A model generated the notes under the pieces. The model was not told the DNA's origin and did not search any database. It worked only from the letters and a program-made list of their open reading frames with translations. A stretch of DNA of 64,000 nt from a bacterium (GTDB lineage Bacteria > Krumholzibacteriota > Krumholzibacteriia > G020349025). Every line of letters starts with the position of its first letter. Positions within the stretch are counted from its first letter, which is position 1. The stretch covers positions 11,412 to 75,411 of the forward strand of contig JANLSU010000111.1 in assembly GCA_031362565.1 (NCBI GenBank), in the 5' to 3' direction. Positions 42,046-51,648 of the stretch are shown here, piece by piece. The translations under genes were made by a program, and so were the position numbers.

Positions 42046-42516
42046 ATGCCGACGTATGACTACGAGTGTGACAACGGTCACCACTTCGAACTATTTCAGT
42101 CGATGAAGGACGAAGCGCTCACGACGTGCACCCAGTGTGACGCCAAGGCGCGGCGCATCATCGGTCCCGGGGCCGGTTTCATTTTCAAGGGCGGCGGCTT
42201 CTACATTACCGACTACCGTTCCAAGGACTACAAAGAGAAGGCCAAGTCCGAGTCGTCCGGCGACGCCGGTTCGAGCAGCAGCAAAAGCTCGCCGGCGGAA
42301 AGCAGTGGATCGGCGGGGACGGCCGACAGCGCGGGCTCGAGCGGCAAGTCCGATGGGAGCAGCAAGCCGGGTTCGAGCGGCGACGCGGGCAGTAGCGGCA
42401 GTTCATCCGGCAAGAGTGGTTCGGCGGACAAGGGCGGAGCTTCGGGGAGCGGCAAATCGTCGGGTGACAAGGGCGGCAGTTCGGGGTCGGGGTCGGGTTC
42501 GAGCGGCGGCTCGTGA
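42046..42516 (+). CDS. FmdB-family zinc-ribbon protein with Ser/Gly-rich tail
   Basis: MPTYDYEC...CTQC...FKGGGFYITDY. Confidence 0.9.
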   Translation: MPTYDYECDNGHHFELFQSMKDEALTTCTQCDAKARRIIGPGAGFIFKGGGFYITDYRSKDYKEKAKSESSGDAGSSSSKSSPAESSGSAGTADSAGSSGKSDGSSKPGSSGDAGSSGSSSGKSGSADKGGASGSGKSSGDKGGSSGSGSGSSGGS

Positions 42517-42551
42517 ACGATGTGGGTGGTGGCGCCGGCGCCGCCTCCGCC

Positions 42552-43397
42552 TTACGGTTCGAGTTGCGACAAGATCGCCAGCGGCCTGAGAACATTCAAC
42601 GCGAATCCCGCCAACGTCATCGCAAAAAGCGCCAAGGCGACAAGCTGCGTCGTACGGCCTTCACGCCGCTCGCGTTGCGACGGCAACCAGTGGCCGAGCA
42701 GATAGCCGCTGGCGATTCCCCCCACGTGCGCCAAGTTGTTGACGCCGGACATCATCAAACCAAAGAGCAGGTTGATGACGATCGTCTGCATCAGTGGGCC
42801 TGATGCGATCTCACTCCAACTCGTGCGCTGGCGCCGCGTGAAGGCCAGCACCGCGCCCATGATGCCGAAAATGGCTCCCGACGCGCCAATCGACGGGTGC
42901 GCTCCCATGGCATTCGAGAGCACGAAACCGGCGGCACCCGTCAACGTGAAGAGAATGAAGAACCGCGCCCGCCCGAAGAGTTCCTGTGCTTCGGGCCCGA
43001 GCCGGCGGATCCACCAGAGGTTGAAAAAAATGTGCAGCAAGCCGCCGTGCAGGTAGATGGCGGTCAGAATCGTCCACCAACGCCCCTCGCCGATCGCGAT
43101 TCCGCCCGTCATCCCAAGTTTGTAGAGCGCCAACCCACTCGGTGAGAGCAAGTTCAACAGCCCGCGCGACTGCATCGCGCCCGGCAAATCGATCAAGAGG
43201 CCGATCACATACAGCACGGCGCAGGCACCGATGATGCCCGGCACGAGATCCATGCGGGCGCCGAACAAACGCTGCAGCGCCGGGGTCGCACCCCACAGAC
43301 CGGGGCGCACCGTGCCGCAATAGGGGCAACGCGGCTCATCGGCGCTGATGAGCTTGCGGCAGTTTGGACAGAGCATCGCGTTGCCGCGGCCGGCCAT
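42552..43397 (-). CDS. Rhomboid intramembrane serine protease with N-terminal zinc ribbon
   Basis: CPNC/CPYC; HGGLLHIFFN, GASG and AHVGG motifs. Confidence 0.9.
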   Translation of the reverse strand: MAGRGNAMLCPNCRKLISADEPRCPYCGTVRPGLWGATPALQRLFGARMDLVPGIIGACAVLYVIGLLIDLPGAMQSRGLLNLLSPSGLALYKLGMTGGIAIGEGRWWTILTAIYLHGGLLHIFFNLWWIRRLGPEAQELFGRARFFILFTLTGAAGFVLSNAMGAHPSIGASGAIFGIMGAVLAFTRRQRTSWSEIASGPLMQTIVINLLFGLMMSGVNNLAHVGGIASGYLLGHWLPSQRERREGRTTQLVALALFAMTLAGFALNVLRPLAILSQLEP

Positions 43398-43658
43398 CGA
43401 ACCTCCCTCCCGGGGCGCATTGTAGCCGTGCACGGTGTTTCTGTGCGCGTCGAATGCCGAGCCTCGAAGTGGGGGAATTCGCGCCGCCTCCGCCGGGCGC
43501 GGGCTGAATGACGCGAAACGGGATCCGGACAAGGAACAACGCGGCACCAACGGCTCTTTGGCAACACGACCGCGTGGCGCGCGCCTTGCGCTGTTGCGAC
43601 GTCGAGACACGGCGGGCGCCGTGCTCGCTGTCGATGTCCGAGTCCCGGAGGCCCCGAG

Positions 43659-44249
43659 TTGCGAAAACACCGCCTCGCTCTCTTCTGCGTACTGTCCGTG
43701 TCACTCGCGAGCGCCGGCGCCGCGTCGGCGGAGCCGGTGTCGCCAGTGGTCACAGGGACCGCTCCTTCGGTCCTGGATGACGTGTTGCGGATCTGGAATC
43801 AGGCTCCCGCAACCGACGCCGGCGACGACACCCCGGAAGCAATGGACGCGTCGCAACAGTGGTACAACTCGAACAACTCGAACAACGCGAACGACGAGGA
43901 TGACGCCACGGATGACGTCACGCCGTCGTACACGGCACCCGACGGCTCGGCGCTGACGCCGAATCTCGACCGCTTGCTGCAAGGCGCCGGACGCCCGCTC
44001 ATGCCGAGCGATGGCGTGCGATCTGGCGCCAGCCAGCCGGCGACCGACGCCTACGGATTCACGGCGTCGCCGTACTTCCAAAAGGGCAACCAGAATACGC
44101 ACCAGCCGTCGCATTACACCCCGCCTCCGCCGCCGCGCTGCCCGCCGCCGACGCCGACGCCGGAACCCGGCAGTCTGATGCTCTTCGGTGCCGCGGCAGT
44201 CAGTGCCGCCGCCGCGCGCCGCCGCCGCCGGTCGGGTTCGGGAAACTGA
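43659..44249 (+). CDS. PEP-CTERM sorting domain protein
   Basis: Signal peptide; acidic low-complexity body; TPEPGSLMLFG + hydrophobic stretch + RRRRR. Confidence 0.8.
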   Translation: MRKHRLALFCVLSVSLASAGAASAEPVSPVVTGTAPSVLDDVLRIWNQAPATDAGDDTPEAMDASQQWYNSNNSNNANDEDDATDDVTPSYTAPDGSALTPNLDRLLQGAGRPLMPSDGVRSGASQPATDAYGFTASPYFQKGNQNTHQPSHYTPPPPPRCPPPTPTPEPGSLMLFGAAAVSAAAARRRRRSGSGN

Positions 44250-44358: not shown

Positions 44359-44973
44359 TCAGGACAGCAATTCGTCCTCGAGCGATGACGTGATCAACAA
44401 CAAGCAGCCGTCGACCGTGAACTGCGGCACATGCACGCTGCCGGCGGCAGCGCGCTGAAAATCGCCGGCGTGCATGACCAGGTCGGCACCGACATGCAAA
44501 TCACCTTCGAGCACGAGGCATTCCTCGGCGTCGGCGTGGCGGTGGCTGGGGTACTGGGTGCCCGGCAGCATTCGCACCAGCATGGTTGCGGTGCGGCGCG
44601 CCGCGTCGAGATACAGCTTCTTGACCGACACGCCGGCCAACACCGATTCCCAATGGCCCTCGGTCGCCCGAACGAGAAATAGATCCTGCGCCGCCACGTC
44701 GCCGGGCGACCAGTTCTTCCACGACTGCACGGTTTCAGTACGCCCTTCGGGAGCGAGGGCGGCGTCCAACACGCGCTGGCGCAAGGCCGCTGGCGGTGCA
44801 ACCGGCGTCACGACGGAGGCGAGACTCGCGACCGTCGCATCGTGGGCGCGCAACTCACGCTCGCACTCTTCACAGCCGGTTTGGAGATGGGTTTGGACCG
44901 CCGCGAGTTCCGCCGGGTCGAGCACGCCGAGTGCATAGAGCGGCAGGAGTTCCTGCAGTGACACGTGGTTCAC
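44359..44973 (-). CDS. ChrR-like anti-sigma factor (ZAS-like N-terminus + cupin)
   Basis: LYALGVL...HLQTGCEEC; cupin PSHRH...EECLVLEG...H; GTGA overlap with upstream gene. Confidence 0.85.
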   Translation of the reverse strand: MNHVSLQELLPLYALGVLDPAELAAVQTHLQTGCEECERELRAHDATVASLASVVTPVAPPAALRQRVLDAALAPEGRTETVQSWKNWSPGDVAAQDLFLVRATEGHWESVLAGVSVKKLYLDAARRTATMLVRMLPGTQYPSHRHADAEECLVLEGDLHVGADLVMHAGDFQRAAAGSVHVPQFTVDGCLLLITSSLEDELLS

Positions 44974-45500
44974 TTGGATGCCTCCAATTGCCGCGACCGT
45001 GTGCCGGCTACCCGCGCCATCGCGTTTCGCAAGCGGCGTCGGACTTCCGTCTCCGGAAGGCCCGTGTGCGCCGCCATGGCCGACACGGAACGTCCTTCCC
45101 AGTATGCCAACCCGAGCAGGTCTTGGTCCACCGGCTCCAGTTGTGCCACCGCGCTGAGGACCGCAGTGGCGGATTTGGGGGGCCGGTGCATTGCCACGAC
45201 CCCGTCGCTCGGCACGGCCGCGGCCACCGTGGCGCCACGGACGCTCGGATCGCGCCGCGCCAACGCCCACTGTCGAACCCGGATGAGCAGCATCCTGCGC
45301 CGCTCGGATTCCGGCCCGGGCCACGACCCGACTTCCCGATACACGGCGACGAGGGCGGCCTGCGCCACGTCCGGACGCCCCACGATCCGTAGGGCCAGTC
45401 CATACGCTGTGGCGGCGGTGCGATCGTAGAAACCCACCAAATCGTCCGATCCGCCCATCGGCTGGGACCCGGCCCCGAAGGGTGACTGTGCTGGGACCAT
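44970..45500 (-). CDS. Degenerate ECF sigma-like protein
   Basis: FYDRTAATAYGLALRIVG (sigma2 start) and LAYWEGRS...GLPETEVRRRLR (sigma4); conserved cores eroded; frame intact. Confidence 0.65.
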   Translation of the reverse strand: MVPAQSPFGAGSQPMGGSDDLVGFYDRTAATAYGLALRIVGRPDVAQAALVAVYREVGSWPGPESERRRMLLIRVRQWALARRDPSVRGATVAAAVPSDGVVAMHRPPKSATAVLSAVAQLEPVDQDLLGLAYWEGRSVSAMAAHTGLPETEVRRRLRNAMARVAGTRSRQLEASK

Positions 45501-45563
45501 GCTCTTCCCCCGCGGCTCCGGACTCGGCTGGGCGGTGCCCGCTGTTCCACTGTCCGATCCCTC

Positions 45564-45590
45564 TACGCAAGGTGCTACCCGGGCGGATTG
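45564..45590 (-). promoter_or_regulatory. Putative RpoE/ChrR-type ECF promoter for the degenerate sigma/anti-sigma pair
   Basis: Minus strand CAATCC-N16-GCGTA. Confidence 0.5.
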
Positions 45591-45622
45591 CCGGGGTGCC
45601 CCGGACCGGCTAGGCTCGCCCT

Positions 45623-45648
45623 TGATGCCCCCCCGTTCCCCCCGCGAA
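45623..45648 (+). promoter_or_regulatory. Putative RpoE/ChrR-type ECF promoter for the intact sigma and CDF transporter
   Basis: TGATGC-N15-GCGAA. Confidence 0.45.
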
Positions 45649-45685
45649 CGGGGACCCACCCCGATGCAGCGACTGGGAAGGGTCC

Positions 45686-46294
45686 ATGACCGCTGGTTTC
45701 GACACGTCCGCCGCGGGCGAAAGCCGGTTGCTTGCCGCGCTCAAGGTGCAGGACCCGGCTGCACTGGATGAACTCTATCGCGCCCATGCGGCCTTCGTGC
45801 ACGGCATTGCGGTGCGCGTTCTACGCGACGCGGCCGAGGCCGAGGAAACGACCCAGGACGTCTTCGTGTACGTGTGGCAGAACGCGGCGCGCTTCGACCG
45901 CCAACGCGGCACCCTCGCTTCATGGCTCGTGACGCTGGCGCGGAGCCGGTCCATCGATCGCTTGCGAGCCCGCGCCAGTCAGACGCGGCGGGTCGAAGGC
46001 CTGGGGCGCGAAATGAGTGCGGCGCCAAGCGTCGATGGCAACGATCCGCTCGCCGGCCTGCTGCAGTCCGAAACCGGCCAACGGGTCCGCGCGGCTTTGC
46101 AGCAGTTGCCCGCGGAGCAACGCCAGGCGCTCGAGATCGCCTACTTCGAAGGCTTGTCGCACCGCGAAGTTGCGGCCCGCCTCGGTACCCCACTCGGCAC
46201 CATCAAGACGCGAATTCGGCAGGGCATGCTGCGCTTGCGCGCGGCTCTCGACACCGATTCGCAGACCTTTCCCGGCCCGCCGGCCGGCACATGA
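45686..46294 (+). CDS. ECF sigma factor (SigK/RpoE-like)
   Basis: AEETTQDVF...W...FDRQRG...WLVTLARSRSIDRLR; AYFEGLSHREVA...LGTIKTRIR. Confidence 0.92.
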   Translation: MTAGFDTSAAGESRLLAALKVQDPAALDELYRAHAAFVHGIAVRVLRDAAEAEETTQDVFVYVWQNAARFDRQRGTLASWLVTLARSRSIDRLRARASQTRRVEGLGREMSAAPSVDGNDPLAGLLQSETGQRVRAALQQLPAEQRQALEIAYFEGLSHREVAARLGTPLGTIKTRIRQGMLRLRAALDTDSQTFPGPPAGT

Positions 46295-47205
46295 AGCGGC
46301 CCGATGCAGTGCCGCCGGGGCGTCCGACCGGTGGCGGCTACGGTCACGCGGTGCAACGGGTCCTGTGGATCACGCTCGGACTGAACCTCGCCGTCGCCGC
46401 GGCGAAATTCATCGTCGGCATGCTGAGCCACAATTTGACCCTGCTCGGCGATTCGGCGCATTCGTTGGTGGACGCCGTGAACAATGTCGTCGGCCTGGTC
46501 GCGGTCGGAGTCGCAGCCAAAGACGCCGATGCCGGTCATCCGTACGGCCACTCCAAATTCGAAACCCTCGCCGCCTTCGTGCTCTCGGGATTGCTCTTCC
46601 TGACCTGTGCGCAACTGGCGATCGTCAGCGTGAAGCGGATCCTGCACGCGCCGGAACACCCGCCGGAAGCGAGCGTCACGGCCTTCGCGGTGGCGATGGC
46701 AACGCTGCTCGTGAATCTCGGCGTTTCGATCTACGAAGAACGCCGCGGCCGGGCGCTCGGCAGCGATTTCCTCGTTGCCGACGCGGCGCACACGCGCAGC
46801 GATGTGCTGGTGACGGCCGTCGTCGTCACGAGTCTCGTGTGCGTGCGCCTTGGTTACCCGCGCGTCGACGCGTACTTGTCACTCGTGGTCGCGGGTTTTA
46901 TCGGCCGCATTGGTTACCAGGTGTTCCGTGCGACGTTGCCGGTGTTGGTGGATGCCTCGGCGGTGGCCGACGCGACGGTTCAAGAGATCGTCCGTTCCGT
47001 ACCGGGGGTGCATTCGCCGCATGCGGTGCGCTCGCGCCGCGCCGGCAACATGGTGTTCGTGGAGATGCATGTGTTGGTGGAACCGAATCAAGAGACCGAA
47101 GCGACCCACGCCCTCACCGAATCCGTCGAAGCCGCGCTGACCCGCGCGTTGGGGCCAACGACCGCCACCATTCACGTCGAAACGTTACGCGATTGCGGCT
47201 GGTAG
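46291..47205 (+). CDS. Cation diffusion facilitator (FieF-like) transporter
   Basis: DSAHSLVD, HPYGHSKFE and ADAAHTRSD motifs; ATGA overlap with sigma. Confidence 0.92.
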   Translation: MKRPDAVPPGRPTGGGYGHAVQRVLWITLGLNLAVAAAKFIVGMLSHNLTLLGDSAHSLVDAVNNVVGLVAVGVAAKDADAGHPYGHSKFETLAAFVLSGLLFLTCAQLAIVSVKRILHAPEHPPEASVTAFAVAMATLLVNLGVSIYEERRGRALGSDFLVADAAHTRSDVLVTAVVVTSLVCVRLGYPRVDAYLSLVVAGFIGRIGYQVFRATLPVLVDASAVADATVQEIVRSVPGVHSPHAVRSRRAGNMVFVEMHVLVEPNQETEATHALTESVEAALTRALGPTTATIHVETLRDCGW

Positions 47206-47206
47206 T

Positions 47207-48931
47207 TCAGTCCTGGCGTTCGATGCCGGCGAGGCGCCAGCCGGCGGCGGCGTGCGGATCGCGGTCCAGGTACACGTGCACCAAGGGGCTCCAGGCGCCA
47301 CCATCGCGCCGCGCCGTGGCAATGCGCAACTCGAGCTGATCCGGCGTTTGGGTCGCGCCAACTGGGAAGCGTGCGAAGCGCGGCTCGGTCGCGACCTGTG
47401 ACGGTTGCAACGCCTTGCCGCCGGCGAAGAGCGCGCACCGGTAGCGGGTCGCTCGAGCCGCCTCGAATCCATGCTCGACCGCGAGATCCGTCCATTGCAG
47501 CTCGAGGCCGTCGCCGGACCCCGCGAGCGCGAAGCGGTCGAGTGGATTGACGCGTGCCAACCACGTGCGGCCCGTCTTGTCACGCCGCTCGATGAGGATC
47601 TTCACCAGAGCGCGCGCCGCTTCCGGATCGGAATACTGTCCAGTGCCAACGGCGGCGGCGATTTGCTCGTCGGTGAACGACAGAACGAGCTTGGCGCCCC
47701 AGAACCCATCGCGGCCGGTGCAGTTCGCGAACGCCGGGTTGGGGATGTAGAACTCGTAGCCGGCCGGGTCGAAGGTGGCGGATTCGAAGTACCCGAGCGC
47801 CGGCCACGGCGCCGGCCGCAGCTTCTCCCATGGTTCCACGTGCAGTCCCAGCGTCACCAGCCGCGCAAACGAGTCATTCGGGTCGACCGCATTCTGGTGG
47901 CCGATGTACGGCTCGATGGAATGATTCGACCCGCTGCCGAGCGTCGAACTGAAATCGAGCAGGTAATGCCGGATGTAGCGCCGGCCGTGGTCGTCGATCC
48001 AGGTGTCGAGCGAATTGCCGTCCTTGGTGTCGAAATGGTGCAGCCATGCCGCCATGACGCGCAGGCCGCGCAACTCGCGCCGGTGTTCGTGCGGCACGAG
48101 ATCGTTCGGATCGTCGCGGCGCGTGCCATCGTACGAGAATGGGCCCAACACCTTGCCGGGCAACGACCGGCTCGCCAGGGCGCGAATGCGCCCGTCCGCC
48201 CGGCGCTCCACTCCGGCCAAGATCGCGTCGAGGTCGGCTTGAACGAGGGGCCGGGTGCGGCCGTGTTTGTCGGTGAATTTGACCTTGGAGCCGAGGCGAA
48301 GGCGTTGCGGATCGAACACCGTCACGTAGTCTTCGGCGACGTGGAATCCCGCTGCCCAGAACAGCTTCGTGCAGACGACGTCCGCCCCACTCGACATCTC
48401 GGGGCGGCCCGGCGGATCGAACTTGATGAAGTACCGGTCACCGCGCGAATCCTGAATCGCGAAACCGGGCGTGACGCCTTCCGTCTTGGCGCGGACCACC
48501 GTCCAAACCGTCGACGTGTCGGGTCCATCGACGGTGTTTGGACCACGCTCGATTTCGGCGCCGCTGAGTTTGTGGCGGGCGTTGCGATTCGTGAACCAGG
48601 CGGAATCGGCGACTTCATCGAATGCATCGGTATTGAACGCTTGCTTGGGCCGGCCCGCCAAGGCTCGCAGTTGCCGCGACAGGTCCAGCCGGCGCTCCAA
48701 CGGCATCATGGCCTGTTTGTCGAAGCTGTCTTCGGCGACGTCGTAGGCACGTGGCTTGGGTTCGGGAATAGACACGCGGTCGTCGGGCCGCGTTCGCGGG
48801 GCAGCCCAGCGGGTGCTACTGGCGCAGCCCACGACGAGTGTCATGCAAGCGGCTGCAACTGCCAGTCCAGGTGCGCCATGCCACGCCGCATTCCGCCCGT
48901 GGCGGCCCCGGGCTTCAATTGAGCGCGACAT
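47207..48931 (-). CDS. Hypothetical lipoprotein with atypical protein-kinase-like motifs
   Basis: Lipobox LVVG-C; RYFIKFD, HFDTKDGN and HYLLDFSSTLG motifs. Confidence 0.7.
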   Translation of the reverse strand: MSRSIEARGRHGRNAAWHGAPGLAVAAACMTLVVGCASSTRWAAPRTRPDDRVSIPEPKPRAYDVAEDSFDKQAMMPLERRLDLSRQLRALAGRPKQAFNTDAFDEVADSAWFTNRNARHKLSGAEIERGPNTVDGPDTSTVWTVVRAKTEGVTPGFAIQDSRGDRYFIKFDPPGRPEMSSGADVVCTKLFWAAGFHVAEDYVTVFDPQRLRLGSKVKFTDKHGRTRPLVQADLDAILAGVERRADGRIRALASRSLPGKVLGPFSYDGTRRDDPNDLVPHEHRRELRGLRVMAAWLHHFDTKDGNSLDTWIDDHGRRYIRHYLLDFSSTLGSGSNHSIEPYIGHQNAVDPNDSFARLVTLGLHVEPWEKLRPAPWPALGYFESATFDPAGYEFYIPNPAFANCTGRDGFWGAKLVLSFTDEQIAAAVGTGQYSDPEAARALVKILIERRDKTGRTWLARVNPLDRFALAGSGDGLELQWTDLAVEHGFEAARATRYRCALFAGGKALQPSQVATEPRFARFPVGATQTPDQLELRIATARRDGGAWSPLVHVYLDRDPHAAAGWRLAGIERQD

Positions 48932-50207
48932 AGAAATTCCACCCTTCGCGCGACCATGCGGCGTCGACGCTGGCGCCGCCACCGCGCGTATTCCAAAGCC
49001 GCAGCCCGACGCCATAGCCGACGTGAAATTGCTGCCCGCTGAAGCCCGCGCCGTCACCCGAGAAGGTATTGCCGACATCGACGAAGAGTGCGGCGTCGAG
49101 CTTGTCGGGCTGCACGGGAAAACGGTATTCGGCCGTGCTGCGCATGGTCTCGTCGTCGCGGAAGCGGCCGCGTTGGTAACCGCGCAGCGTTTCGCGCCCG
49201 CCGAGTTCGAGCAAATCGTAGAACGGCACGGTACGATTCGCGGCCTCCCACTGCGCGCGGCCTGCCGTCCCGAGCGTCAGCGTCCGGCCGTAACCCAAGT
49301 GGATGTAGCGTGTGTACGCCGCCGCCGCTTCCACCCATCCGAAATCGTCGCCGTTCGTTTGCCGTGCGTAGGCGCCGCCGATCATCGCTTCGTCGCCGCG
49401 CGTCGGCCGGCCGCGTTGATCGCGTGTATCCCGGTGCAACCCCGCATCGATGCGCACGATCTGCGCGAGGTCGCGCAATCCCGGCAGCGACGCAAACTGT
49501 GCCGTCGTCGACGGAGTCGACTTGCGGCGCCCGCCACGAATGTTGTTCGCCGCCCAACCGAAACCGGCGCTGGCGTTCAGGCCGCGTGTCACATCGAGGG
49601 CGACGCCGGCATTGGCACTGGTGCGTTCATTTGCGAAGTTCGTCTTGTCGCTCTCACGGCTGGTGAAACCGGCACCGAAGTACGGCTCGTCGGGCAGGAA
49701 TTGGTAACGAACCCCGGCTCCCGCCGTGACGCGTCCGCTGGCCATCCGCACTCGTTCGATCTGGGCCTCGAAGAGTTGGCGCCGCAAGCGGCCACCCGTG
49801 GCGCTCAGGGTGAATTTGCTGCCGCGGGTCAGAAGATTGCGCTGCTGATAGAGCGCACCGGCGCCGCCGCGTGCCGAATAGGTCGGCAGGAGCGCGCGGC
49901 TACCGTCGGCGGCGACCAGGACATCCAGCACGCGGTCGGACACGTGCCCCCGGTTGAGTACGCCGATGACCGCCTTCGTGCCGCCCAGCACGACCTCGAA
50001 GGGCAGCAGGATCACCGTGCCCGGCAGCGAAACGACGGTTTCCCACGGCGAGTGAGCCCGTAGCCGGTGGCGGGGCGCCGTCGCGGAGTCGCCGGGCGCC
50101 GCGGCCGGAAAATCGGCCCGTGCCGTCGCCGCCGCCGTGGTTCCAAGCGCGCAAACCAGTCCGATTCGCGCCACGCCCCGTTGAAACCAAAGCCCCGTGA
50201 GTCGCAT
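48915..50207 (-). CDS. Omp85 (BamA/TamA) family outer-membrane beta-barrel protein
   Basis: LGGRETLRGYQRGRFRD (Omp85 RGY loop), EYRF, LFVDVGN and GYGVGLR; no obvious POTRA domains. Confidence 0.85.
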   Translation of the reverse strand: MRLTGLWFQRGVARIGLVCALGTTAAATARADFPAAAPGDSATAPRHRLRAHSPWETVVSLPGTVILLPFEVVLGGTKAVIGVLNRGHVSDRVLDVLVAADGSRALLPTYSARGGAGALYQQRNLLTRGSKFTLSATGGRLRRQLFEAQIERVRMASGRVTAGAGVRYQFLPDEPYFGAGFTSRESDKTNFANERTSANAGVALDVTRGLNASAGFGWAANNIRGGRRKSTPSTTAQFASLPGLRDLAQIVRIDAGLHRDTRDQRGRPTRGDEAMIGGAYARQTNGDDFGWVEAAAAYTRYIHLGYGRTLTLGTAGRAQWEAANRTVPFYDLLELGGRETLRGYQRGRFRDDETMRSTAEYRFPVQPDKLDAALFVDVGNTFSGDGAGFSGQQFHVGYGVGLRLWNTRGGGASVDAAWSREGWNFYVALN

Positions 50208-50445
50208 GCGAACGTCCCGTTCCCAAAGTGTGCCCACGCGGGCGCCCGATCTGTTCCCGAACGTCACAATGGCGAGGTGCCAGGCATTCAACCACACCCG
50301 GTGAGTGCGGATCTAGGGCTCCCAGGCGCCGGATGCCCGGGCGCCCGTTGCCCGCGCCGCGTCGCAGCCACCAACAAAAGAAGGCAACCTCGCGGCGGTT
50401 CGATCCGTCTAGAGTGCAGGCTCACGCCGAAAGGGGTCCGAGATC

Positions 50446-51648
50446 ATGATTCGACGTCTGCACCCATTCCGTGCCTCCGAGATCCTGAGGCTGGCCGGGG
50501 CACTTGCCGCCCTGGCGGTCCAGCCCGCCGTCGCGGCCGAGTTCGAGAAGACCTTTTCTTATGATGCCCGCGAACTGACCGTGACCGACCTGATCGGAGC
50601 GGTGCACGTCGAGAGCGCCCCCGGCTCCAAGTTCGAAGTCCTCGTCCAGGTTCGAGGCGCGGACGCCGACCCCAAGTACATCAAACTGGAGAGCACGGAG
50701 GGCAACCGCGCCCGGCTCATCGTGCGCTTCCCGGTGGACGAGTATCGCAAATACACTTACCCGGCACTCGGGCACAACAGCCGCAGTTCGTTCAGCGCCC
50801 GTGACGATGACCGGCACCACGGCGGCGACTGGTTGCGCGACCTGATGGATTTTGCGTACGGCGACCGGATCGATGTTTCGGGCCGGTCCTCGGGGCGGGC
50901 GCTCGAACTGTGGGCCGATGTGACGGTCAAGGTGCCGGCATCACAGCACGCCACCATCCAACTGGGGTGCGGCGAGATCACCGCCAATCAAGTCTCGGCG
51001 TCACTCGATCTCAAGTCCAAGTCCGGCGCCGTGCATGCGAACGACATCAAGGGCGATCTCCTGGCCGATACCGGCAGCGGCAGCGTCGAGGTCCGTGGGG
51101 TGCGCGGTGAACTGACCGTCGACACGGGGAGCGGTTCGGTGATCGTCGCCGACGTGCAGGACGCCAAGGCGGTGTCGATCGACACCGGCAGCGGTGAAGT
51201 GCGCGTTTCGGGCATCAAGGCCGGCGACCTCAAAGTGGACACCGGCAGCGGCTCGGTGGATCTTGCCGATATCACCACCGACAATCTCGATGTCGATACC
51301 GGCAGCGGCGGCGTCGACGGGGCCCGAATCGATACGCAGGACATGAAAGTCGATACCGGCAGCGGTGGATTGGAAGTCGAGCTCGTGCGCATGGGCCACG
51401 GCCATTACCAATTCGAAACCGGCAGCGGCGGGATTCGCCTCGACATGCCGCGCGACCTCTCCGCCGACTTCGACGCCTCGACCGGCAGCGGATCGATCGA
51501 TGCCGACATCGATGGCGTGCAGTTGTCGCGCCGTGAACGTCGCGAAGCGCACTTCAAGGTCGGCAGCGGCGACGCGCGGGTGCTGGCTTCGACGGGGAGC
51601 GGCGGGATTCATCTGACGCAGGATGCCGGCAGAGCGTCGCGCCGGTAA
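50446..51648 (+). CDS. Secreted DUF4097/adhesin-like beta-solenoid protein
   Basis: Signal peptide; nine [DES]TGSG repeats, mostly about 19-20 aa apart. Confidence 0.85.
   Translation: MIRRLHPFRASEILRLAGALAALAVQPAVAAEFEKTFSYDARELTVTDLIGAVHVESAPGSKFEVLVQVRGADADPKYIKLESTEGNRARLIVRFPVDEYRKYTYPALGHNSRSSFSARDDDRHHGGDWLRDLMDFAYGDRIDVSGRSSGRALELWADVTVKVPASQHATIQLGCGEITANQVSASLDLKSKSGAVHANDIKGDLLADTGSGSVEVRGVRGELTVDTGSGSVIVADVQDAKAVSIDTGSGEVRVSGIKAGDLKVDTGSGSVDLADITTDNLDVDTGSGGVDGARIDTQDMKVDTGSGGLEVELVRMGHGHYQFETGSGGIRLDMPRDLSADFDASTGSGSIDADIDGVQLSRRERREAHFKVGSGDARVLASTGSGGIHLTQDAGRASRR

What the first reader, a model, noticed from the sequence alone, without database searches (positions are those of the whole stretch)
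47207..50207. Omp85 barrel paired with an exported atypical kinase-like lipoprotein
Seen: a 430-aa Omp85-type barrel without evident POTRA domains overlaps by 17 bp a 574-aa lipoprotein. The lipoprotein has, in kinase order, KTEGVTPGF (Gly loop), RYFIKFD (beta3 Lys), PE...ADVVCTKLFWAAGF (alphaC region), WLHHFDTKDGN (D-x4-N catalytic loop) and HYLLDFSSTLG (DFG-like). Known: this motif order typifies atypical kinases (HipA, PI3/4K, CotH, Fam20), and Omp85 proteins translocate or assemble partners. Inference: a dedicated two-gene system that displays or anchors an extracytoplasmic kinase at the outer membrane. I know of no characterised example.
Basis: partly seen in the sequence, partly recalled or inferred. 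Interest (0 to 1): 0.75.

Follow-up and report, generated by a model that had tools for sequence, protein, structure and literature searches.

The report
Exported kinase-fold lipoprotein with Omp85 barrel
A sediment bacterium carries a widely conserved two-gene unit, a stripped-down outer-membrane barrel followed by an exported enzyme folded like a protein kinase, which hints that some bacteria phosphorylate molecules outside the cytoplasm, where ATP is usually thought to be missing.

The parts
48915..50207 (-). Gene for a 430-aa POTRA-less (noNterm-type) Omp85 barrel
   Evidence: Translation. Pfam Omp85 E 6.7e-23 with no POTRA hit. AF2 model pLDDT 86.4. Foldseek best matches are BamA and TamA barrels, E about 1e-13.
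50115..50207 (-). Barrel signal peptide, residues 1-31, ending ARA
   Evidence: Sequence. Helix 7-26 in the model.
49917..50048 (-). Conserved N-terminal segment of the mature barrel, residues 54-97 (PWETVVSLPGTVILLPF...). It is predicted helical and stands where POTRA domains would be.
   Evidence: Model helices 54-86 and 89-97 with pLDDT 55-75. The motif recurs in barrel ORFs of related loci. P69 is nearly invariant in A2.
48921..49898 (-). 16-stranded beta-barrel, residues 104-429, including the loop-6 motif LRGYQRGRF (49161-49187)
   Evidence: 16 strands in the DSSP of the model. R342 and G343 are nearly invariant, R348 invariant. Coordinates checked.
48915..48931 (-). 17-bp overlap of the barrel stop and the lipoprotein start, with an RBS-like GGGTGG just upstream
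47207..48931 (-). Gene for a 574-aa exported kinase-fold lipoprotein (a new family with no Pfam or NCBIfam model)
48824..48931 (-). Signal peptide and lipobox, residues 1-36 (…LVVGC)
   Evidence: Sequence. Cys36 is kept in at least 90% of the 31 sequences of A1, but the column holds Cys in only 71 of 134 wider relatives.
48533..48823 (-). Conserved N-terminal extension, residues 37-133 (PDDR...IP...P motif, two helices, WFTNRN motif)
   Evidence: D51, P58, W112, N115, R116 and N117 are invariant in A1. pLDDT is 84-92.
47537..48532 (-). Atypical protein-kinase-like domain, residues 134-465
48422..48424 (-). K170, the predicted beta3 lysine (YFIKFD)
   Evidence: It lies in strand 166-171. Invariant in A1. 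Kept in 128 of 134.
48014..48037 (-). Catalytic-loop motif HFDTKDGN (H299, D301, K303, N306), directly after helix 285-296
   Evidence: D301 is kept in 131 of 134 and N306 in 124 of 134.
47948..47956 (-). DFS (DFG in most relatives), D326 being the predicted metal-binding Asp
   Evidence: D326 is kept in 130 of 134. Position 328 is G in 100 and S in 15 of 134.
47210..47554 (-). C-terminal FnIII-like beta-sandwich, residues 460-574
50208..50445 (.). Intergenic region between the operon and the divergent DUF4097 gene. It presumably holds the promoter.
   Evidence: ORF layout. No sigma-70-like site was found, so the promoter is not identified.

Best explanation
The two genes form a dedicated envelope phosphotransfer module. 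The lipoprotein is a catalytically competent member of a new family in the protein-kinase-like superfamily. It is exported by Sec and lipidated at Cys36. It works in physical partnership with its own POTRA-less Omp85 barrel, which docks it at the outer membrane or handles its passage there. I place the enzyme at the periplasmic face of the outer membrane. There it would transfer phosphate from ATP to an endogenous envelope substrate, either a protein or a glycolipid. ATP/ADP exchange across the inner membrane would be done by the TLC/NTT-family carriers that co-occur with the pair. In many relatives an exported purple-acid-phosphatase-like metallophosphoesterase lipoprotein (sometimes also a PAP2 phosphatase) would reverse the mark. 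What is shown here: the gene pair, the export signals, the fold, the motif conservation, the synteny and the co-occurrence. What is inferred: kinase activity, binding to the barrel, the side of the membrane, the substrate and the ATP supply.
For: Catalytic residues. K170 lies in a strand. E/D184 lies in the following helix. HxD301xKxxN306 comes right after helix 285-296. D326-F-G follows a hairpin. These are kept in 128, 122, 131, 124 and 130 of 134 relatives of at least 500 aa, taken from 151 collected. A binding-only protein would not need the catalytic Asp.
Conservation. Members are 47-53% identical across candidate phyla, and mean column identity is 61%. This argues for a conserved endogenous role rather than an arms-race effector.
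Export. The protein has a signal peptide and lipobox.
Partnership with the barrel. The barrel lies directly upstream on the same strand in 65 of 67 loci. The window's genome holds a second, old pair (kinase 41-45% identical, barrel 23%). Barrel and kinase distances correlate at r 0.81 over 70 pairs, with a shuffle maximum of 0.085; this is partly shared ancestry. Complex prediction gave weak support. The ipSAE score was 0.52 (runs 0.55, 0.52, 0.48) and the best control was 0.00. That mark was reached by 116 of 157 solved complexes and 2 of 215 mismatched pairs. At 0.60 or under, however, it was reached by only 18 of the 157 solved complexes and by both of the mismatches that passed. The runs share at least 79% of contacts, and the partner's pLDDT is at least 85.
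Nucleotide carriers. A TLC ORF lies within the fetched flanks in 31 of 79 loci. In 151 genomes of the window's phylum, kinase and TLC occur together in 52, kinase alone in 2 (80% and 88% complete), TLC alone in 17 and neither in 80. Within genera g8, g14 and g30 exactly the same genomes carry both. In the window's own family all 5 genomes carry both, but unlinked. In a second phylum 24 of 32 kinase-positive genomes carry TLC, against 33 of 119 kinase-negative ones.
Phosphatase. A metallophosphoesterase lipoprotein with all catalytic motifs occurs in 16 of 79 loci. Its 14 strong matches in the phylum sample all fall in kinase-positive genomes, and in five of these it lies next to the long TLC gene on a different contig from the kinase. 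Its best PDB sequence match is purple acid phosphatase/TRAP, E 5.7e-5. A PAP2 gene lies directly before the barrel in 3 loci.
Against: Nothing was assayed. A shared fold shows no function.
The periplasm is generally held to lack ATP. This is established view; I saw the phrase only in search listings.
The TLC-like proteins pass Pfam's cut-off but score far below NCBIfam's NTP/NDP-exchanger model (67.9 against 387.2 bits). Their substrate and direction are therefore unknown, and characterised NTTs import nucleotides.
The window's own locus has no TLC or phosphatase neighbour. Its genome has no match to the phosphatase subfamily.
Five of 29 strong kinase-positive genomes of the second phylum (at least 90% complete) show no TLC. 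In addition, 17 and 33 genomes carry TLC without the kinase. The link is therefore not obligatory.
Related genomes are not independent, so the co-occurrence counts overstate the association.
The lipobox Cys column holds Cys in only 71 of 134 relatives.
The window's copy has DFS instead of DFG and D instead of E at position 184.
The complex score is only a weak pass, and no interface was returned.
Omp85 proteins usually move or insert polypeptides. That fits surface export better than periplasmic docking.
Confidence: 0.45

Rival explanations
1. Two-partner-like export. The barrel carries the lipoprotein across the outer membrane. The kinase is then displayed on the cell surface or released, and acts outside the cell on matrix components, on neighbouring cells or on its own surface polymers, using extracellular ATP.
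For: Omp85/TpsB barrels encoded next to their cargo are the known pattern. This is discussed in PMC11358297 (passages read), which also reports lipoprotein genes immediately downstream of noNterm Omp85 genes in Leptospira and proposes them as cargo. The closest structural matches, CtkA and Fam20C, are secreted kinases (PDB titles; that CtkA is secreted is recalled). The barrel has an N-terminal helix where FhaC has its plug helix (the FhaC detail is recalled). Synteny holds in 65 of 67 loci.
Against: No POTRA domain was found in the barrel, and the cargo has no TPS domain. Cross-phylum conservation of about 50% identity is unusual for surface effectors. ATP exported by an inner-membrane carrier would be diluted outside the cell. 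The linked phosphatase lipoprotein and the PAP2 enzyme are envelope proteins.
Confidence: 0.22
2. Nucleotide and phosphate scavenging. The kinase-fold lipoprotein captures extracellular or periplasmic nucleotides (or phosphorylates a nutrient) at a barrel that serves as a pore. Metallophosphoesterase and PAP2 enzymes release phosphate. TLC carriers and Na/Pi cotransporters then import nucleotides and phosphate.
For: The neighbours have a phosphate theme: Metallophos, TLC, Na/Pi cotransporter (L010, L016), PhoU (L016), PPK2 (L070), SurE (L073) and PAP2. All characterised NTTs are importers; I read passages of PMC5381601, and the transport modes are recalled.
Against: Capture alone would not keep the catalytic Asp and Asn in 131 and 124 of 134 relatives. 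Omp85 barrels are not known as nutrient pores (recalled). The Na/Pi, PhoU, PPK2 and SurE neighbours are seen in only one or two loci each. The window's locus has none of these genes.
Confidence: 0.18
3. A non-enzymatic accessory. The barrel is a specialised outer-membrane protein assembly factor. The kinase-fold lipoprotein is its structural partner, as BamD is for BamA or LptE for LptD, and the kinase fold is used only as a scaffold.
For: The barrel is most like BamA and TamA barrels. Barrel-plus-lipoprotein machines are well known (recalled). Rare long relatives have lost the catalytic Asp (P0272, P0273).
Against: The catalytic residues are kept nearly everywhere. The link with nucleotide carriers and a phosphatase has no place in this reading.
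Confidence: 0.08

Closest known systems
noNterm subfamily of Omp85 (Heinz & Lithgow 2014, PMC4104836; Leptospira paralogues, PMC11358297)
   Same: An Omp85 barrel without POTRA domains. In Leptospira, lipoprotein genes lie immediately downstream and were proposed as cargo (passages read).
   Different: Those papers assign no function. The Leptospira neighbours are Big/integrin-like and DUF1566 lipoproteins, not kinase-fold proteins. The word 'kinase' does not occur in PMC11358297.
Two-partner secretion (type Vb; FhaC/FHA)
   Same: A two-gene unit of an Omp85-superfamily barrel and an exported partner.
   Different: TpsB proteins have two POTRA domains and TpsA proteins a TPS domain (recalled). 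Neither was found here.
H. pylori CtkA (PDB 3akj/3akk/3akl)
   Different: Only 13% identity, and no sequence-level match. CtkA has no lipobox, no FnIII-like tail and no barrel partner as far as I recall.
Fam20C/Fam20 secretory-pathway kinases and Bacillus CotH
   Different: 8-9% identity. No Pfam Fam20C or CotH match at E<=1. Fam20C is eukaryotic and CotH belongs to the spore coat. Neither has a barrel partner.
HipA/HipT toxin kinases and PI4KII-alpha / MavQ lipid kinases
   Different: These are cytoplasmic proteins. The catalytic loop here reads HxDxKxxN as in eukaryote-type protein kinases (comparison recalled). No antitoxin-like neighbour was seen.
NTT/TLC nucleotide carriers, including NTT-HEAT(-cNBD) fusions (Major et al. 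2017, PMC5381601)
   Same: Both the short (about 440 aa) and the long HEAT or cNMP-binding forms lie beside the pair in relatives. The paper reports the fused forms in free-living bacteria as uncharacterised (abstract and passages read).
   Different: The paper does not link them to a kinase or an Omp85 barrel; the words 'periplasm' and 'export' do not occur in it.

Membership tests
Omp85 superfamily | 16-stranded C-terminal beta-barrel matching the Omp85 profile | tested here: met
   PF01103 at 82.1 bits against a cut-off of 24. The model has 16 strands over residues 104-429. Foldseek matches BamA and TamA at E about 1e-13.
Omp85 superfamily | Conserved loop-6 (V)RG(Y/F) motif | tested here: met
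   LRGYQRGRF at residues 341-349. R342 and G343 are nearly invariant and R348 invariant in 39 barrels.
BamA / TamA / TpsB classes of Omp85 | One or more periplasmic POTRA domains before the barrel | tested here: not met
   No POTRA hit at E<=1. Between signal peptide and barrel the model has only a disordered stretch and a helical segment, residues 54-97. It scores far below the BamA and TamL NCBIfam cut-offs.
noNterm Omp85 subfamily (Heinz & Lithgow 2014) | An Omp85 barrel with no N-terminal functional domain | tested here: met
   A conserved helical segment of about 45 residues remains. Whether the authors' clusters contain this clade was not tested.
Two-partner secretion cargo (TpsA) | N-terminal TPS domain on a beta-helical passenger | tested here: not met
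   No Pfam match of any kind. The model is a bilobal kinase fold plus a beta-sandwich.
Protein-kinase-like superfamily | Bilobal kinase fold | tested here: met
Protein-kinase-like superfamily | beta3 Lys, alphaC acidic residue, catalytic-loop Asp and Asn, metal-binding Asp of DFG, in that order and conserved | tested here: met
   K170, E/D184, D301, N306 and D326 sit in the expected secondary-structure elements. They are kept in 128, 122, 131, 124 and 130 of 134 relatives. Residue-by-residue superposition on a solved kinase was not available.
Protein-kinase-like superfamily | ATP binding and phosphotransfer | not testable with these tools
   Needs biochemistry.
Fam20, CotH, HipA, PI3/PI4-kinase families (by sequence) | Match to the family's profile | tested here: not met
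   No Pfam or NCBIfam family at E<=1. No kinase among PDB sequence matches, using either the single sequence or the profile. The likeness is in fold only.
Bacterial lipoproteins | Signal peptide ending in a lipobox with an invariant Cys | tested here: met
   …AAACMTLVVGC36. Cys is kept in at least 90% of A1 but in only 71 of 134 wider relatives. Lipidation itself is not testable here.
TLC/NTT nucleotide carriers (neighbour genes in relatives, unlinked genes in the window's genome) | Match to PF03219 above its cut-off; adenine-nucleotide exchange | tested here: inconclusive
   Above Pfam's cut-off but far below NCBIfam TIGR00769. Transport was not tested.

The most novel reading that the evidence does not exclude
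Many free-living diderm bacteria (Latescibacterota, Zixibacteria, Calditrichota, KSB1, Acidobacteriota, Gemmatimonadota and others) run ATP-dependent, reversible phosphorylation in the periplasm or at the outer membrane. The writer is this barrel-bound kinase. The eraser is a purple-acid-phosphatase-like lipoprotein, sometimes with a PAP2 enzyme. The supply line is made of NTT and NTT-HEAT(-cNMP-binding) carriers that exchange cytoplasmic ATP for periplasmic ADP. This would be a bacterial counterpart of the Fam20C system of the eukaryotic secretory pathway. It would give a first function both to noNterm Omp85 barrels and to the uncharacterised NTT-HEAT proteins.
Probability: 0.3. Interest if true: 0.92.

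Novelty: new variant of a known kind. Interest (0 to 1): 0.78.

Why it matters
Bacterial envelope biology assumes there is no ATP, and so no kinase chemistry, beyond the inner membrane. This locus belongs to a large, strongly conserved and wholly unannotated family of exported proteins with an intact kinase active site. Each is tied to a private Omp85 barrel, and across genomes the family tracks nucleotide-carrier genes and an exported phosphatase. If the enzyme is active, three open questions become testable together. What do POTRA-less Omp85 barrels do? What do NTT and NTT-HEAT carriers do in free-living bacteria? Does regulated phosphorylation exist in the bacterial envelope? Even under the more modest readings (surface-displayed kinase, or a scavenging device) it defines a new kinase-like family and a new cargo type for Omp85 barrels.

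Tried and rejected
Sequence-level annotation of the lipoprotein. Pfam and NCBIfam gave nothing at E<=1. PDB sequence searches with the protein and with a 31-sequence profile gave only chance-level rows: DET1, an IgA Fc receptor and DotD. The ESM Atlas's nearest clusters are all 'hypothetical'; the nearest named ones (Fam20C in 11% of members, score 0.80; HipA_2, 0.78) are leads only.
Fusion of barrel and kinase. The 993-aa ORF in L059 has no Pfam hit and overlaps a separate barrel ORF in another frame, so it is just an open frame in GC-rich DNA. A search for longer relatives found only 4 (1015-1163 aa), none with a Pfam domain. The two I aligned have a degenerate catalytic loop and an unknown C-terminal extension. 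The tool warns that finding few long forms is weak evidence.
Exceptions to synteny. L077 has a 7TMR-DISM histidine kinase instead of a barrel upstream, and L030 has only small unassigned ORFs.
Expression. No RNA holder is listed for the stretch.
Promoter scan. There were 0 sigma-70-like sites, and the 2 terminator-like sites are no more than shuffles give.
Neighbours of the window's own TLC-like genes and of the second pair on contig C97 showed nothing related.
Literature. Searches for Omp85 + kinase + lipoprotein, kinase-like + Omp85 + Fam20 + CotH, noNterm + Omp85, nucleotide transporters in free-living bacteria and periplasmic kinase / periplasm without ATP found no description of this pair. 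Subscription journals are not covered.
I considered a polymorphic toxin or effector reading. I dropped it because of the roughly 50% cross-phylum identity and the low copy number of 1-3 matches per genome.
Full report
1. The observation. ORF listing and translation confirm two genes on the minus strand. The first is a 430-aa protein at 48915-50207. The second is a 574-aa protein at 47207-48931. Its ATG lies 17 bp inside the first gene and follows a GGGTGG. The upstream protein has a signal peptide ending ARA. It matches Pfam Omp85 (E 6.7e-23, residues 124-404), and no POTRA match was returned at E<=1. The downstream protein has a signal peptide ending in the lipobox LVVGC. The unit stands alone in the window. 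A DUF4097 gene diverges from it at 50446. A cation-efflux gene converges on it, ending at 47205.

2. The lipoprotein is a new kinase-fold family. Pfam, NCBIfam and PDB sequence searches give nothing. The family is nevertheless large. There are 3281 hits at E<=0.001 among the 8000 candidates scored. None of the 120 listed has a Pfam domain, and those with a name are called hypothetical. A search of the library clustered at 50% identity finds 2986 clusters at E<=0.001 and 858 at E<=1e-30. Named sources include Latescibacteria, Zixibacteria, Calditrichota, KSB1, Marinimicrobia, Krumholzibacteria, Poribacteria, Gemmatimonadota and Acidobacteriota.

The conserved residues sit where a kinase needs them:
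- K170 lies in strand 166-171.
- An acidic residue at position 184 lies in helix 179-194.
- H299-x-D301-x-K303-x-x-N306 comes directly after helix 285-296.
- D326-F-G/S follows the next hairpin.
In 134 relatives of at least 500 aa (of 151 collected) these positions are kept in 128 (K170), 122 (E or D at 184), 131 (D301), 124 (N306) and 130 (D326). Further invariant residues, H281, R285, R288, H322, D408 and W411, are unexplained. They may form the acceptor site.

3. The barrel. With 39 sequences the model (pLDDT 86.4) has four parts. They are a signal peptide, a disordered stretch, a helical segment (residues 54-97, pLDDT 55-75) that carries the conserved WE..VSLPG..I..PF motif, and 16 strands (residues 104-429). 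The loop-6 RGY motif is present. The nearest solved structures are BamA and TamA barrels. This places it with the noNterm Omp85 proteins. Heinz and Lithgow only speculated about their role (passage read). A Leptospira study found lipoprotein genes immediately downstream of noNterm Omp85 genes and suggested a two-partner-like relation (passages read).

4. The pairing. A scan of one genome per species found 509 confirmed relatives among 602 pattern matches. The best 79 loci were kept. ORF clustering finds the barrel in 68 of these loci, with 69 of 71 ORFs on the kinase's strand. Of the 67 loci with at least 1400 bp upstream, 65 have the barrel directly upstream. The exceptions are L030 and L077. 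The window's genome has a second pair on another contig, with the kinase 41-45% and the barrel 23% identical to the first pair. The pairing has therefore survived an old duplication. Barrel and kinase distances correlate at r 0.81 over 70 pairs, with a shuffle maximum of 0.085. Shared ancestry contributes to this value.

Complex prediction gave weak support. The ipSAE score was 0.52 and the best control 0.00. That mark was reached by 116 of 157 solved complexes and 2 of 215 mismatched pairs. At 0.60 or under, however, it was reached by only 18 of the 157 solved complexes and by both of the mismatches that passed. The three runs share at least 79% of their contacts, and the partner's pLDDT is at least 85. 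No interface was reported. No barrel-kinase fusion was found.

5. The wider neighbourhood. In relatives, the genes that recur on the same strand are as follows.
- A metallophosphoesterase lipoprotein lies directly downstream in 16 of 79 loci. All its catalytic motifs are invariant, and its best PDB sequence match is purple acid phosphatase/TRAP at E 5.7e-5.
- TLC/NTT-family carriers occur in 31 of 79 loci. There is a short form of about 440 aa and a long form fused to HEAT repeats, sometimes also to a cyclic-nucleotide-binding domain.
- Upstream there are PAS/GAF or 7TMR-DISM histidine kinases, and in three loci a PAP2 phosphatase.
- Seen once or twice each: a Na/Pi cotransporter, PhoU, PPK2 and SurE.
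Major et al. described NTT-HEAT(-cNBD) proteins of free-living bacteria as uncharacterised (abstract and passages read).

The window's own locus has none of these neighbours. Its genome does carry one short and one long TLC-like gene elsewhere.

6. Co-occurrence across genomes. I sampled 151 genomes (at least 80% complete) of the window's phylum. This is probably Latescibacterota, because the genome of locus L007, which bears that title, appears in the sample. The counts are:
- kinase and TLC together: 52 genomes
- kinase only: 2 genomes (80% and 88% complete)
- TLC only: 17 genomes (12 of them in one genus)
- neither: 80 genomes
In genera g8, g14 and g30 exactly the same genomes carry both genes. 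By my reading of the two tables, a TLC match lies within 10 kb of the kinase in at least 33 of the 54 kinase-positive genomes. In the window's own family all five genomes carry both genes, but unlinked.

The 14 strong matches to the phosphatase subfamily all fall in kinase-positive genomes. In five of these genomes the phosphatase sits next to the long TLC gene on a different contig from the kinase. The window's genome has no match.

A second phylum, that of L045 (title Terriglobia), was sampled with 151 genomes at least 90% complete. It repeats the link more weakly. TLC is present in 24 of 32 kinase-positive genomes (23 above Pfam's cut-off), against 33 of 119 kinase-negative ones. Five of the 29 strong kinase-positive genomes show no TLC. 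Related genomes are not independent, and I ran no control family, so these counts overstate the evidence.

7. Reading. The parts shown here are:
- an exported protein, usually lipid-anchored, with a kinase fold and an intact active site
- a private POTRA-less Omp85 barrel
- a genomic association with nucleotide carriers and an exported phosphatase
I therefore favour an envelope phosphotransfer module supplied with ATP by the carriers (confidence 0.45). Activity, the side of the membrane, the substrate and the ATP route are inferred. The rivals are:
- two-partner-like surface display (0.22)
- nucleotide and phosphate scavenging (0.18)
- a non-catalytic accessory to an assembly barrel (0.08)
The main points against my reading are these. 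The periplasm is generally held to lack ATP. The TLC-like proteins are distant from characterised exchangers. Some genomes carry the kinase but show no TLC gene. The window's genome lacks the phosphatase.

8. Novelty. My searches found no description of the pair. Earlier notes of this scan describe the same pairing in three other genomes. They agree with this report but are not independent evidence. The unit is not a member of any characterised secretion or kinase family by sequence. It is best filed as a new variant of the 'Omp85 barrel plus adjacent cargo' theme with a new kinase-like family as cargo. The bolder reading, regulated ATP-dependent phosphorylation in the bacterial envelope, is not excluded.

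Noticed in passing
G000 contig C97, locus L093:6268-9374: The window's genome holds a second barrel-plus-kinase pair (kinase 41-45% identical, barrel 23%). It is followed by a 1148-aa spermine-synthase/TPR protein and has no TLC or phosphatase gene nearby.
   Followed up: partly
L055:3679-9933 and L035:623-6773: Two barrel-kinase cassettes lie in tandem on one contig in a KSB1 MAG and in a Latescibacterota MAG.
   Followed up: no
P0272, P0273 (relatives of 1015 and 1163 aa): Rare long relatives keep HYL-DF but have lost the catalytic-loop Asp and Asn. They carry a C-terminal extension of about 500-600 aa with no Pfam domain, so they are possible pseudokinase offshoots.
   Followed up: partly
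G060, G035, G011, G129, G111 (coordinates): The metallophosphoesterase lipoprotein and the long TLC-HEAT gene form their own adjacent pair, even when the kinase lies on another contig.
   Followed up: partly
window 43659-44249 (+): A small exported protein with a PEP-CTERM sorting signal (PF07589, E 2.1e-5).
   Followed up: partly
window 44359-46294: An ECF sigma factor (45686-46294, +) lies beside a divergent pair on the minus strand: a sigma-70 region-4 protein and a ChrR-type cupin anti-sigma-like ORF.
   Followed up: partly
window 42046-43670: A Zn-ribbon (FmdB-like) protein with a long Ser/Gly-rich tail (42046-42516, +) overlaps the 3' end of a convergent zinc-ribbon rhomboid protease gene (42552-43670, -).
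   Followed up: partly
window 50446-51648 (+): A DUF4097 'toastrack' protein with a signal peptide and GSGS repeats is transcribed divergently from the barrel gene.
   Followed up: partly
window 47207-48931, residues H281, R285, R288, H322, D408, W411: Six residues outside the classical kinase motifs are invariant or nearly so in 134 relatives. They are candidates for the acceptor-binding site and remain unexplained.
   Followed up: no
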